Virus record (IMG/VR): IMGVR_UViG_3300028797_000007
Span: 1-64,000 of that record
Reading direction: 5' to 3' (one strand)
Origin: a virus
Lineage: Duplodnaviria > Caudoviricetes
DNA length: 64,000 nt
Part shown: positions 1 to 64,000 of the stretch, piece after piece
Numbering within the stretch: position 1 is the first letter of the stretch
Layout of the letters: every line of letters begins with the position of its first letter
Made by a program: the position numbers and the translations under genes
The notes under the pieces: model-generated
Seen by the model: only the letters and a program-made list of their open reading frames with translations
Told to the model about the DNA's origin: nothing
The model's database searches: none

Positions 1-63
1 GAAGCAACTCCAGCACAACAAGATTTAGTTGAAGCAGCTTTAGCAGAACTTAAAGAATTATAA
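1..63 (+). CDS. 3' end of upstream gene (partial), probably an AAA/Sak4-like ATPase (SPbeta YorG position)
   Basis: Frame 1 is open, EATPAQQDLVEAALAELKEL-TAA; product inferred only from synteny with the downstream replication module. Confidence 0.4.
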   Translation, partial: EATPAQQDLVEAALAELKEL

Positions 64-64
64 G

Positions 65-559
65 ATGGCGAATAAAAAGGTCATATGTAAGTATTGTGGT
101 GAGGCATTCGACAGAGAGCGTGAAGAGTGGACAAAAGTTTCCACTCGATACGCCCATAAGTCATGTTACGAAAAAGCACAATCAGAAGCTGCGGATTTGC
201 GCAAGGTGACCGATTTGATAAAAAGTCTATATTATCCTAAAGAACCTGATTGGGGAATTATTGGTTCTCAATTAAAAAGGTATAAAGATGAAGGTAAGAC
301 TTATATAGGTATGTATTATACATTAACATACTTTTTTGTCATAAAAGGAAATGATATACATAAGAGTGCTGGCGTAGGAATAATTCCTTATGCATATGAT
401 AAGGCACGTGCATATTATAAGAACATGGATAATACATATACAAAAACAGCCGAAATAAATAAGAGAGATAAAATAGATGTTAAGCAAACGGAAGACATCG
501 TAACAATAGTTCATCATAAGCCTACAAAAAAATTAATAGGTTTTACTTATGAAGAATAA
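65..559 (+). CDS. Conserved phage replication-module protein with N-terminal Zn motif (YorH-like)
   Basis: CxxC...HxxC at the N-terminus, GVGIIPY motif, directly upstream of the helicase. Confidence 0.6.
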   Translation: MANKKVICKYCGEAFDREREEWTKVSTRYAHKSCYEKAQSEAADLRKVTDLIKSLYYPKEPDWGIIGSQLKRYKDEGKTYIGMYYTLTYFFVIKGNDIHKSAGVGIIPYAYDKARAYYKNMDNTYTKTAEINKRDKIDVKQTEDIVTIVHHKPTKKLIGFTYEE

Positions 560-574
560 GAAAGGAGGATTACC

Positions 575-60818: not shown

Positions 60819-60830
60819 TGTAGCTCCCTC

Positions 60831-62420
60831 CTATAAACTCGCTTCCTTCGTTATAGTTGAATCTTTCTTCTCATTATCGTCCAATTCTGGGCGTCCATTC
60901 TTCTTGTCACTGGCTTCTTGTGCTTCAATGTTACCAGTTTTAGTTTGACCATTTGCTTTAATGTCGGATTTATTGCTCATGGTATGTGAACTTTGTAGGG
61001 GAACAAGTTTACTATCCAAGTCAAGAATGTCGTTCTCAAAAGCAGTAAGTGATTCTATATAACGTTGTTTAACTCCCAAAGCTACTTGAGGTACAATTTT
61101 GGAGAATCCATATTGAGCTCCTTCAAGATAACTTTTCATCATTTCCTCTCTATCCTTATAGGAAGTATCTAAAAATGAAAATACAAATTTGCTATTTTTT
61201 ATGATTTTCTTTTGGCAAACTGCGCCTAAATAGAAATTAAACCAAATAGCAATTTGTTCACGAAGTTTCCACATGAATATAGCATCTCTACGTTGAGACT
61301 CTTTCAATGTACCTGCTGATGTAGAATTAAATAATTCAGCAGATACCCCAGCATCATCGTAAAATTGGTCGTAATAAGTTTCCAAGAATTCATAATTTTT
61401 TGTAGCATCTCCTGTTTCACCTAACGATAAAACATCAATTTCTTTAGCCAATGTAGTAATAGCGTCAACATTATTCTTTTTAGCAGCAACGGCTTTTAAA
61501 TTCTTATGGAATTCAGCAGCTAACTCTAAATCTATTTCTGGGTTTCCTTCTTTGTCTATATCAATTAATTGAACTAATAATTTAGTTAAATTGGTAGAAA
61601 TATAATCATCTTTTAATGGTTCTAACATTTGTATACGAGCTATTTCTTTAATTAGAAAAGCAAAAGGTGGACGTCCATCTGATGTCGTAAATGCTATACC
61701 ATTTTCTACCGGTACAATAAACCATTGATTTATTGATTTACCATTTTTATATTCTTTATAAGCTGAACGAATTGCTTTAGGATATTGCTTTAATACTTCG
61801 TCCATTGTTAATAAATTATCTTTAGTCATTTCAGCCATAGCTACATCAATGAAAGTTAGGTCTACTGCAAATATATTAATTGATGGAGTTCCTGCAGTAC
61901 CAATTATTTTACAATAATCTGTAGGTAATTTTATCGTTTTAAAATACGAATTGGCCCCTTTTTTATATTCTTCATTATAATAATAAGTCTCACCTTCAAT
62001 TAACATATCTAATAAAGCATGACTAGTAAAGTTTTCTACTTCAATATCCTCATCTAATGTTCTTAAGGCTGCATTATAATCTTTCATTAACTTTTTCTTG
62101 TTTACTTTTTTATCGTCTAATATCGGAGATATAATATATGAATTATAATATATATAAGCAAAATATTCTAATAGTCTACGATATAATGGATGAGCAAAGT
62201 AAACTCTAGAAAATTTTCTTCAAGCTTTTACATCACTATAAGGTGTTTTTAAAACATCTTCTGGTTTAATAGGAATTTCCACTCTACGACCTTTAGTTAA
62301 AGCAGAGCCTTGAGGAATTTCTATAGTACCATTTTTAACAGCTGTACCCATTGCTTGAATAGATTTTCTAAATTCGGTTAAATATTCTTTTGTATAACTA
62401 GTAAATTTTTCTTTATCCAT
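60831..62420 (-). CDS. Portal protein (529 aa; TGA=Trp at 62220)
   Basis: Lies between terminase and protease; YRRLLEYFA, LPTDYCKI, AGVSAELFN, PLQSSHT. Confidence 0.85.
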
Positions 62421-62437
62421 TTGCTACTTTTCACCTC

Positions 62438-64000
62438 CTAATTTAAAAAACTATATTGACCTTTACTCCAATCTCGATTTTTCTTTTCTCTTTCTGTTTC
62501 TTCTACTTGATTTATATAATATAAACCATATACAAAAGCAGAAACCAAGTCTTTTCGAGTATGGCTATTGATACGAGTTAGCACTATAGTACTATTTGTA
62601 TCTAAATTGGCTTTTAAATTAGATAACTGGTCTTGTAACTTAGTCGTTTGAGCATATGGAATAAGTTTATTTGCTTGTTGAACTGGGTTCATCTTATTCC
62701 AAGTTTTATATTGACTGAAATATCTACGTGCTTGTCGTTCATTTAATAGTAGAGAAACACGTTTTAGACTCAAAATAATGTGAGCATTTGTATAAATTTC
62801 ACTATTTAAGCCTCGATTTGCTTCAATTCCGAACAATTTTCGCACATTTTCACGTTTTTCTGTACTAGAATACTTAGTTTTATTTAAAAAACCATAAGGA
62901 CTATAATAAATACCGTTTAATTCTTGTTCATCAATCATATAATCGGCAAGTCCAGCACCATTACCATTAATATCCATTACGATTGCTTTAAAGTCAAACT
63001 CTAAATCTAATTGTTTAAGCATTGCAGCCTGGTCTCTGAAGTGAGTCCCATTTAAAATCTTGATATTTACTAGGTGAATCTTATAACGTTCACCATCAGT
63101 ATAAACCTTAAATACCATCGCAACAGTTTGGTCGCCTTCAAATCTTGCAACGTCGACAGCACATACATAAAAACCTTTAAAGTCTTTTTCTCTTTTAAAC
63201 TCAGGTCTTACAAGATTACGACATTTACTAATTTGAGTATAGGAATAATAACTATCTTCGCTACCGCCAGTCCATACAGACATATATTCACGTAAAAATG
63301 ATTCAAGCTTATATGAAGATGCCTGTAATTTATCTTTTACTTTATCTACAGATAATAATCCGTGCATTACAGGTATTCTATAATCTCCACCAAAACAAAA
63401 TGCTTTGTCTGGTTCTAATGCCATATCAACTAATGTCTCTAATGTTCTATCATGAGCATAGGTTCCTTTATACCCCGCTGTAGTAATCATAGTTTGTGCA
63501 GCATGTGGTTCTGTCGGATTTAATAATCCAGCAACAGTTCTACGGTCAACATTCATCAATGGAATGATTACTTCGTTAACTGCATCACCATCCATCATGG
63601 CAAACTCTTCAAGTGTACCCCAATGTCTACGACCACCACGTCCAGCGTTACCAGTATTAACGATATCTATTTGACTATCATTACGGAATTTAAGTTCAGC
63701 ATAATCTGAACCCATATTACCATATTTCTTTTTCATCTTATCAATATCACTTATATTAAGTTCATTAACTAAAAAAGGAAATAAACGATAAATTTCATTA
63801 GTCTTTTCTTCTACGATTTGTGCCGCTTGCTTTTTTGTATCAGCACAAGTGAATCCTTTACTTCGCGGTTGCATAATTCCACGAATATTCATATCCAAGA
63901 AATCTAGAAATGACTTTGAATACGCACGAGGAAATGTTCCAGAAACCTCTCTAAAACGCATACATACTCTTAAAAATATTCTTTGATAAAAATATAATTT
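62438..64000 (-). CDS. terL: Terminase large subunit (5' partial)
   Basis: LYFYQRIFL, PRAYSKSF, RGGRR, LEEF, ITTAG, FLREY, AVDVAR, MDING, KDLVSA; frame stays open to the window end. Confidence 0.92.
   Translation of the reverse strand, partial: KLYFYQRIFLRVCMRFREVSGTFPRAYSKSFLDFLDMNIRGIMQPRSKGFTCADTKKQAAQIVEEKTNEIYRLFPFLVNELNISDIDKMKKKYGNMGSDYAELKFRNDSQIDIVNTGNAGRGGRRHWGTLEEFAMMDGDAVNEVIIPLMNVDRRTVAGLLNPTEPHAAQTMITTAGYKGTYAHDRTLETLVDMALEPDKAFCFGGDYRIPVMHGLLSVDKVKDKLQASSYKLESFLREYMSVWTGGSEDSYYSYTQISKCRNLVRPEFKREKDFKGFYVCAVDVARFEGDQTVAMVFKVYTDGERYKIHLVNIKILNGTHFRDQAAMLKQLDLEFDFKAIVMDINGNGAGLADYMIDEQELNGIYYSPYGFLNKTKYSSTEKRENVRKLFGIEANRGLNSEIYTNAHIILSLKRVSLLLNERQARRYFSQYKTWNKMNPVQQANKLIPYAQTTKLQDQLSNLKANLDTNSTIVLTRINSHTRKDLVSAFVYGLYYINQVEETEREKKNRDWSKGQYSFLN

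What the first reader, a model, noticed from the sequence alone, without database searches (positions are those of the whole stretch)
1..64000. Whole phage uses TGA as tryptophan (genetic code 4)
About 60 in-frame TGA codons (hand count 62, in 27 genes) interrupt essential genes such as primase, RecJ, DnaE, NrdG, portal, TMP, Dit, lysin and holin. The frame always continues past them, and every reconstructed gene ends in TAA or TAG. Trp identity has internal support: in the 32656-34920 repeats TGA aligns with TGG (FTG-TGA-KSS vs FNNWKSS; SQ-TGA-GSS vs AQWSSS), and the same holds for KVNGQ-TGA vs KINGSW in 36902-38455. In the dehydratase, SRAEKGQ-TGA-E matches the SRDExKQWE-type motif of PseB/FlaA1 enzymes.
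Basis: partly seen in the sequence, partly recalled or inferred. Interest (0 to 1): 0.85.

Follow-up and report, generated by a model that had tools for sequence, protein, structure and literature searches.

The report
Phage that reads TGA as tryptophan
This complete 111-kb uncultured phage, related to Bacillus phage SPbeta, writes about a quarter of its tryptophans with the stop codon TGA and carries its own TGA-reading tRNA; this is a clear new example of a trick already described for gut and rumen phages.

Summary
The window holds 63-64 in-frame TGA codons in 27-28 genes. They sit inside single Pfam domains (PHP, DNA_pol3_alpha, Polysacc_synt_2, Fer4_12, GT1). Read through, the proteins match SPbeta YorJ, YorK and YorL in length.

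Tryptophan is well supported. In standard-code sister phages, 116 of 167 codons aligned to the window's TGA sites are TGG, 21 are Tyr or Phe, and none is Gly. The substitution profile of TGA sites matches that of TGG sites.

- It is not the "whole phage". TGA makes up 24% of Trp codons, and a ~24-kb block (89.2 kb across the genome ends to 2.15 kb, including window 1-2149) has none.
- The PseB-motif argument fails. Solved homologues have Asp or Ser at that column.

The likely decoder lies outside the window, at genome position 87418-87513. It is a tRNA(UCA) with a Trp-type acceptor and an extra arm that copies the Trp anticodon loop. Four complete standard-code sisters lack it, and a recoded sister has it. 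The genome encodes no RF1 or TrpRS.

The recoded phages form one subclade nested among standard-code sisters that have almost no TGA stops. This repeats the published "Agate"-type pattern (Borges et al.). The scan has already noted TGA-to-Trp phages many times on other DNA (182 notes, at least 109 genomes). I rate it a new member of a known kind.

The parts
1..2149 (+). TGA-free end of a ~24-kb block compatible with both codes (YorH-like gene 65-559, DnaB-type helicase 575-2149). The block starts at about 89.2 kb of the genome and crosses the terminal repeat.
   Evidence: No genuine TGA against 54 TGG in the block, compared with 24% TGA elsewhere.
2151..3293 (+). YorJ-like primase, TGA at codons 295 and 328.
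   Evidence: TGG in the standard-code sisters and TGA in recoded sisters L001/L002/L008. Length 380 aa against YorJ 378.
3262..5007 (+). RecJ-like exonuclease (YorK type), TGA at codons 34, 266 and 313.
   Evidence: Sisters have TGG at 34 and 266 and Tyr at 313. Distant relatives mostly have Phe.
7139..10981 (+). DnaE/YorL-type DNA polymerase, 1280 aa. TGA at codons 159 (7613-7615), 525 (8711-8713) and 1106 (10454-10456).
   Evidence: Single-piece 99% alignment to SPbeta YorL. Trp in most homologues at 525 and 1106.
10990..12210 (+). Unknown 406-aa protein, TGA at codons 127, 179 and 361.
   Evidence: TGG in nearly all sisters.
15212..15769 (+). NrdG-type radical-SAM activase after a TGA-free NrdD (13078-15285). 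TGA at residue 68 of this ORF.
   Evidence: The Fer4_12 domain (34-170) spans the TGA.
17712..20657 (+). Glycan genes: CapE/PseB-like dehydratase (TGA at codon 46), GT10-like gene (105) and GT2 (144, 153, 395).
21865..26826 (-). 1653-aa tail protein (Prophage_tail domain), TGA at codons 531, 1359 and 1465, at poorly conserved columns.
   Evidence: Sister G003 aligns across codon 531, so this is one protein.
27569..29455 (-). Lysis pair: a holin-like protein with three hydrophobic segments (27569-28018; TGA at 14 and 134) and a CHAP lysin (28031-29455; TGA at 440).
29500..30630 (-). GT1/GT4 glycosyltransferase, TGA at codons 250 and 368.
   Evidence: TGG in all comparable sisters.
32656..34920 (-). 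Repeat protein with Listeria-Bacteroides repeats, six TGAs. Internal repeats pair TGA with TGG.
36902..38455 (-). FN3-domain protein, nine TGAs against eight TGG. This is the most heavily recoded gene.
41922..50317 (-). Dit (41922-43433; TGA at 199, 419, 430) and tape-measure protein (43523-50317; TGA at 1914, 1923, 1945).
50924..60818 (-). Virion genes with one to three TGAs each (50924-51946, 51946-52242, 52244-53077, 54229-54960, 59511-60818), interleaved with TGA-free ones (53231-54205, 55460-56665, 57945-58970).
60831..64000 (-). Portal (60831-62420, TGA at codon 67) and large terminase (62438 to 64195, beyond the window edge; TGA at codon 39).

Best explanation
The phage translates TGA as tryptophan during infection of a host that most likely uses the standard code. 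The decoder is most likely its own tRNA with anticodon UCA. It lies outside the window at genome 87418-87513, minus strand, beside tRNA-His in a 26-gene tRNA array. This tRNA has the bacterial tRNA-Trp acceptor features (A1-U72 pair, G73 discriminator, encoded CCA). Its variable region forms a 5-bp stem with the 7-nt loop CUCCAAA, the same loop as the anticodon loop of the phage's ordinary tRNA-Trp(CCA). It is presumably charged by the host TrpRS and outcompetes release factor 2. The genome has given up TGA as a stop, so suppression harms none of its own genes. A TGA-free block at the start of the rightward gene series can be translated before the tRNA accumulates. Replication, nucleotide, glycan, virion and lysis genes all need the changed code. 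Shown here: the in-frame TGAs, their equivalence to Trp codons, the tRNA and its structure, and its co-occurrence with recoding. Inferred: charging with Trp by the host enzyme, competition with RF2, a timing role, and the host's code.
For: The Trp meaning rests on (sister phages; distant standard-code relatives). One protein per read-through ORF rests. The tRNA(UCA) appears (Rfam tRNA, 61 bits). The recoded sister contig G008 has an 85%-identical copy with compensatory changes in the acceptor stem (G2-C71 to C2-G71) and in the extra arm (CGGG/CCCG to AAGG/CCTT). Twenty IMG/VR contigs carry this tRNA type, with 17 distinct sequences and covarying arm stems. Four complete standard-code sisters have 18-28 tRNAs but no tRNA(UCA), no convincing sense TGA, and TGG at the homologous sites. 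In a quick DnaE tree the recoded phages form one clade (SH-aLRT 98) nested among standard-code sisters. The genome has no RF-1 or class Ib synthetase domain. The early block has no genuine TGA against 54 TGG. In the literature, the same pattern is described for ~127-kb 'Agate' phages (10.1101/2021.08.26.457843), and phage tRNA-Trp(UCA)/TrpRS pairs insert Trp at UGA in E. coli systems (PMC12636597).
Against: The host is unknown. MAG labels on related contigs range from Bacteroidaceae to Methanobrevibacter, so they look like mis-binned phage contigs. A long extra arm together with G73 could in principle attract SerRS, though no Ser codons align at TGA sites. TGA sites show no weak-termination context (next base G 32, A 31, T 16, C 6, the same as after TGG, p = 0.2) and no position bias (p = 0.47). 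How RF2 is beaten, for example nine times in one gene, is therefore unexplained. In recoded sisters the helicase, which is TGA-free here, does carry TGAs, so the early block is not a fixed feature of the clade.
Confidence: 0.8

Rival explanations
1. The host itself uses code 4 (TGA = Trp, no RF2), and the phage simply matches its host.
For: The whole near clade avoids TGA as a stop: 12 of 357 ORFs in four complete sisters, against 74 of 280 in more distant relatives of similar G+C. At least two of the few TGA stops, in homologous genes of G003 and G004, sit where sisters have TAA and are followed at once by TAA; three more ORFs end TGA-TAA or TGA-TAG.
Against: Four complete sisters have no sense TGA among 245-304 Trp codons at 32-36% G+C. 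That would not persist in a code-4 host. The phage carries its own tRNA(UCA). TGA is only 24% of its Trp codons and a 24-kb block has none. The phage has a CHAP lysin and a holin, so the host is walled. Cultured and integrated relatives are in Bacillus, Enterococcus, Staphylococcus and a Lachnospiraceae isolate. The exact tRNA pattern was not found in 401 sampled genomes of the class of a Bacilli MAG that carries a related phage contig.
Confidence: 0.1
2. TGA is a leaky stop read by near-cognate tRNA-Trp(CCA), that is, programmed read-through rather than reassignment, so most products are truncated.
For: The phage also encodes tRNA-Trp(CCA). No RF2 countermeasure was found.
Against: A dedicated tRNA(UCA) is present and tracks recoding. 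There are up to nine TGAs in one gene and three in the essential DnaE. No leaky-context bias was seen.
Confidence: 0.04
3. TGA stands for another residue (Gly as in code 25, Cys, selenocysteine, or Ser through the long arm).
For: ARAGORN labels the tRNA 'SeC' under table 11. It has a long extra arm and G73.
Against: No Gly and only one Ser among 167 aligned codons in the window; Trp, Tyr and Phe dominate. The tRNA has a 7/5 acceptor/T arrangement and a 4-bp D stem, not the Sec form. Apparent TGA-Cys pairings in sisters were antisense artefact ORFs.
Confidence: 0.02
4. The genes are broken (pseudogenes) or the TGAs are assembly errors.
For: None beyond the stops themselves.
Against: Seven of twelve comparable sites share TGA with independent contigs from other metagenomes. 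The frame is always kept, homology continues past every TGA, and the genome is complete.
Confidence: 0.01

Closest known systems
TGA-recoded 'Agate' gut and rumen phages (Borges et al., bioRxiv 10.1101/2021.08.26.457843; later in Nature Microbiology, from my own knowledge)
   Same: Genomes of about 110-130 kb from animal guts. TGA is read as Trp. A suppressor tRNA(UCA) is present. Close standard-code relatives have almost no TGA stops (4 of 146 in the paper; 0-7 of about 90 here). Recoded virion and lysis genes.
   Different: In the published representative the replication genes stay in standard code. Here the primase, RecJ, DnaE and NrdG genes are recoded too, at the same rate as virion genes (27% against 25% of Trp codons). 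Membership of the Agate clade itself could not be tested because their sequences are not held.
[quoted passage not shown]
   Same: A phage tRNA(UCA) with G73 that inserts Trp at UGA, shown experimentally for those pairs.
   Different: This phage has no TrpRS and no RF1, so it must rely on the host enzyme. Its tRNA has an extra arm that copies the CCA anticodon loop.
Bacillus phage SPbeta and SPbeta-like phages of Staphylococcus and Enterococcus
   Same: The replication module has the same gene order: Sak4-like (YorG), YorH, helicase YorI, YorJ, RecJ-like YorK, polymerase YorL at 37-43% identity. Similar genome size and a siphovirus-type tail module.
   Different: Those phages use the standard code with ordinary TGA stops (12 of 42 ORFs in the SPbeta stretch).
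Mycoplasma/Spiroplasma code 4
   Same: The same codon meaning.
   Different: There the whole cell lacks RF2 and TGA is the main Trp codon. Here TGA is the minority Trp codon, recently derived from TGG, in a virus with its own decoder.

Membership tests
Alternatively coded (TGA to Trp, table 4) phage | In-frame TGAs inside conserved genes, with the frame continuing | tested here: met
   63-64 sites in 27-28 window genes. Pfam domains and full-length SPbeta homology span them.
Alternatively coded (TGA to Trp, table 4) phage | TGA columns align with Trp in homologues | tested here: met
   116 of 167 aligned codons are TGG, 21 are Tyr or Phe, none is Gly. The profile equals that of TGG sites. Distant relatives are 56% aromatic at these sites.
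Alternatively coded (TGA to Trp, table 4) phage | TGA not used as a terminator | tested here: met
   No gene requires a TGA stop. C-terminal TGAs align with TGG. A few small unaligned ORFs that end TGA-TAA stay undecided.
Alternatively coded (TGA to Trp, table 4) phage | Suppressor tRNA with anticodon UCA | tested here: met
   Genome 87418-87513, Rfam tRNA 61 bits. Present in recoded sister G008 and absent from four standard-code sisters.
Alternatively coded (TGA to Trp, table 4) phage | Host uses the standard code | tested here: inconclusive
   Indirect only: standard-code sisters, own tRNA, a TGA-free block, and relatives in Bacillota. The host was not identified.
Alternatively coded (TGA to Trp, table 4) phage | Trp actually inserted at TGA (protein evidence) | not testable with these tools
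   No proteomics.
Code 25 (TGA = Gly) phage of Absconditabacteria or Gracilibacteria | TGA columns align with Gly | tested here: not met
   No Gly among the aligned codons.
Selenoprotein genes (TGA = Sec) | TGA aligns with Cys; tRNA-Sec with 8/5 arms | tested here: not met
   Cys is absent at the window's sites. The tRNA has 7/5 arms and a 4-bp D stem.

The most novel reading that the evidence does not exclude
This clade may be a natural time series of codon capture driven by selection rather than base composition. The standard-code sisters have lost TGA as a stop (3%, against 26% in more distant relatives of the same G+C) but keep TAG at 26-40% of stops. At least two of the few remaining TGA stops are followed at once by TAA. 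One nested subclade then gained a two-armed tRNA(UCA) beside tRNA-His and turned TGG into TGA, up to 57% of Trp codons in long ORFs of one sister fragment (12 of 21). If so, the standard-code sisters already live where TGA is unreliable as a stop, for example through co-infection with recoded kin or in hosts with weak RF2. Recoding would then spread as a population-level process, not as a regulatory invention of a single phage.
Probability: 0.25. Interest if true: 0.55.

Novelty: new member of a known kind. Interest (0 to 1): 0.3.

Why it matters
Gene callers using table 11 break about 28 genes of this window into fragments, so the correct code is needed for any annotation of this phage and its recoded sisters. 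Biologically it adds a complete genome, with complete standard-code sisters at 78-85% DnaE identity, to the known set of TGA-to-Trp phages. Here recoding has reached the replication genes, and no phage RF1 or TrpRS helps. That makes it a tidy system for asking how a single tRNA can override host RF2. It does not open a new question by itself.

Tried and rejected
- The megablast search of 24 kb against cultured phages found nothing.
- The tRNA(UCA) was not found by BLAST in four complete sisters or in fragments G005-G007 and G009. ARAGORN confirmed its absence from the complete sisters.
- L003 and L010 looked lightly recoded (8-9% TGA). Their TGAs lie upstream of the true starts, so both are standard code.
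- TGA-TGA and TGA-Cys pairings between sisters turned out to lie in antisense or tRNA-overlapping artefact ORFs.
- TGA codons do not differ from TGG codons in the following base or in position along the gene. This gives no support for a leaky-context or 'gate codon' rule.
- TGA is not concentrated in virion genes relative to replication genes (25% against 27%).
- Host search: MAG labels of related contigs are inconsistent and most contigs are phage-sized.
- The exact tRNA pattern was absent from five such MAG genomes and from 401 sampled genomes of one class. This is a very narrow test.
- A literature search for a natural tRNA with a second anticodon-like arm found nothing relevant.
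Full report
**What the window is.** The window is the first 64 kb of a single-contig, 111,499-bp virus record. It has direct terminal repeats, is rated 100% complete, and has 32% G+C. Its genes run rightward to about 21.8 kb and leftward from 66.3 kb down to 21.9 kb.
- The replication module has the same gene order as Bacillus phage SPbeta: Sak4-like, YorH-like, DnaB-type helicase, YorJ-like primase, RecJ-like YorK, and YorL-type DnaE at 43% identity over 99% of its length.
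- The leftward arm holds terminase, portal, virion proteins, tape measure, Dit, large tail proteins, a glycosyltransferase, a CHAP lysin and a holin-like protein.

- With TGA read through, window ORFs of at least 60 aa hold 63 in-frame TGAs in 27 ORFs. NrdG adds one more.
- Greedy ORF density goes from 84.7% (212 ORFs, table 11) to 90.9% (178 ORFs, table 4). Standard-code sisters already show 88-90% under table 11.
- Single Pfam domains span TGAs in DnaE (PHP, DNA_pol3_alpha), the dehydratase, a GT1 enzyme and NrdG.
- Product lengths match SPbeta: 380 against 378 aa, 581 against 576, and 1280 against 1305.
- The three DnaE 'stops' are all in one frame and lie at 7613-7615, 8711-8713 and 10454-10456.

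**Which amino acid.** I fetched twelve related IMG/VR loci and four complete sister genomes, G001-G004.
- Of the window's TGA sites, 46 can be compared with standard-code sisters. Of the 167 aligned codons, 116 are TGG, 15 Tyr and 6 Phe. None is Gly and one is Ser.
- Genome-wide, TGA sites and TGG sites have nearly the same substitution profile.
- In SPbeta, an Enterococcus phage and about 20 distant standard-code relatives, the comparable sites are 56% aromatic. DnaE codons 525 and 1106 are mostly Trp.
- Its PseB argument is not supported: CapE has Asp and FlaA1 has Ser at that column.

**How far the recoding goes.**
- TGA is 62 of 256 Trp codons in the window and 85 of 375 in the genome.
- Replication and glycan genes (27%) and virion and lysis genes (25%) are equally affected.
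- A block from about 89.2 kb across the ends to 2.15 kb has no genuine TGA against 54 TGG. It holds a metallophosphatase, a ThiF-type cassette, the Sak4-like gene and the helicase.
- This block is the start of the rightward gene series, which fits early expression under the host code. That reading is an inference.
- In recoded sisters the helicase does carry TGAs.
- TGA codons do not differ from TGG codons in the next base or in position within genes.

**The decoder.** The window has no tRNA. The rest of the genome has 26, including tRNA-Trp(CCA) and a 96-nt tRNA(UCA) at 87418-87513.
- The tRNA(UCA) has an A1-U72 pair, G73 and an encoded CCA end.
- Its variable region is a 5-bp stem with the loop CUCCAAA, identical to the anticodon loop of tRNA-Trp(CCA).
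I checked it on my own data.
- The recoded sister contig G008 has an 85%-identical copy next to tRNA-His, with compensatory changes in the acceptor and the extra arm.
- A pattern scan found 22 IMG/VR contigs. Twenty yielded such a tRNA, with 17 distinct sequences whose arm stems covary. The loop was fixed by the search pattern, so its conservation in that set is not independent evidence.
- The four complete standard-code sisters lack any tRNA(UCA).
- The genome has no RF-1 domain and no TrpRS-type domain.

**Evolution.**
- G001-G004 have no convincing sense TGA. The candidates were upstream extensions, true stops, or antisense artefacts.
- They rarely use TGA as a stop: 0, 2, 3 and 7 of about 90 ORFs. 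TAG stays at 26-40% of stops.
- At least two of those TGA stops, in homologous genes of G003 and G004, stand where sisters have TAA and are followed directly by TAA. Three more ORFs end TGA-TAA or TGA-TAG.
- More distant relatives of similar G+C use TGA for 74 of 280 stops.
- In a quick DnaE tree the recoded phages (this one, L001, L011, L002/L008) form one clade (SH-aLRT 98) inside the standard-code group. The careful tree search did not finish.
- The extra TGAs of the recoded sisters map almost only to TGG in the others.

**Comparison with what is known.** All of this matches Borges et al.. They describe TGA-recoded 'Agate' phages of about 127 kb from cattle, pig and tortoise guts, with suppressor tRNAs and standard-code relatives depleted in TGA stops. 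PMC12636597 shows experimentally that phage tRNA-Trp(UCA)/TrpRS pairs insert Trp at UGA. The differences here are the recoded replication genes and the lack of a phage TrpRS or RF1. The scan itself has 182 notes of this kind in at least 109 genomes.

**Verdict.** This is a new member of a known kind, of modest interest. The host, and therefore the claim that the phage overrides a standard-code cell, remains inferred.

Noticed in passing
G003:C1:19267-19995 and G004:C1:17784-18515 (also G003 87384-87959, G002 73338-73817, G004 102081-102452): Five ORFs in the standard-code sister phages end in TGA followed at once by TAA or TAG. For the homologous G003/G004 pair, sisters have TAA at the TGA position, so these are backed-up TGA stops. 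For the other three the reading as a stop was not confirmed.
   Followed up: partly
Sister genomes G001-G004 against loci L049-L070: TGA-stop loss is specific to the near clade (3% against 26% of stops) at the same G+C, while TAG stays common. Low G+C alone does not explain it.
   Followed up: partly
L048:10001-15047: In the closest MAG-borne relative (81% identity, a 119,960-bp contig binned as Bacteroidaceae), the DnaE match spans 5.0 kb instead of 3.8 kb. This suggests an insertion such as an intein or intron in the polymerase gene.
   Followed up: no
loci L051, L054, L056, L061, L063: Phage-sized contigs with this polymerase are binned into MAGs of Methanobrevibacter, Endomicrobiaceae, Treponema and others. 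These are probably binning errors, a caution for host assignment from MAG labels.
   Followed up: no
window 36902-38455 (-): This FN3-domain tail or fibre protein has more TGA (9) than TGG (8) Trp codons, the highest share in the genome. No sister aligns over most of these sites.
   Followed up: no
window 17712-20657 (+) and 29500-30630 (-): The phage carries a CapE/PseB-type UDP-GlcNAc dehydratase and three glycosyltransferases (GT10-like, GT2, GT1/GT4). Only sister G002 aligned at the dehydratase and GT2 TGA sites.
   Followed up: no
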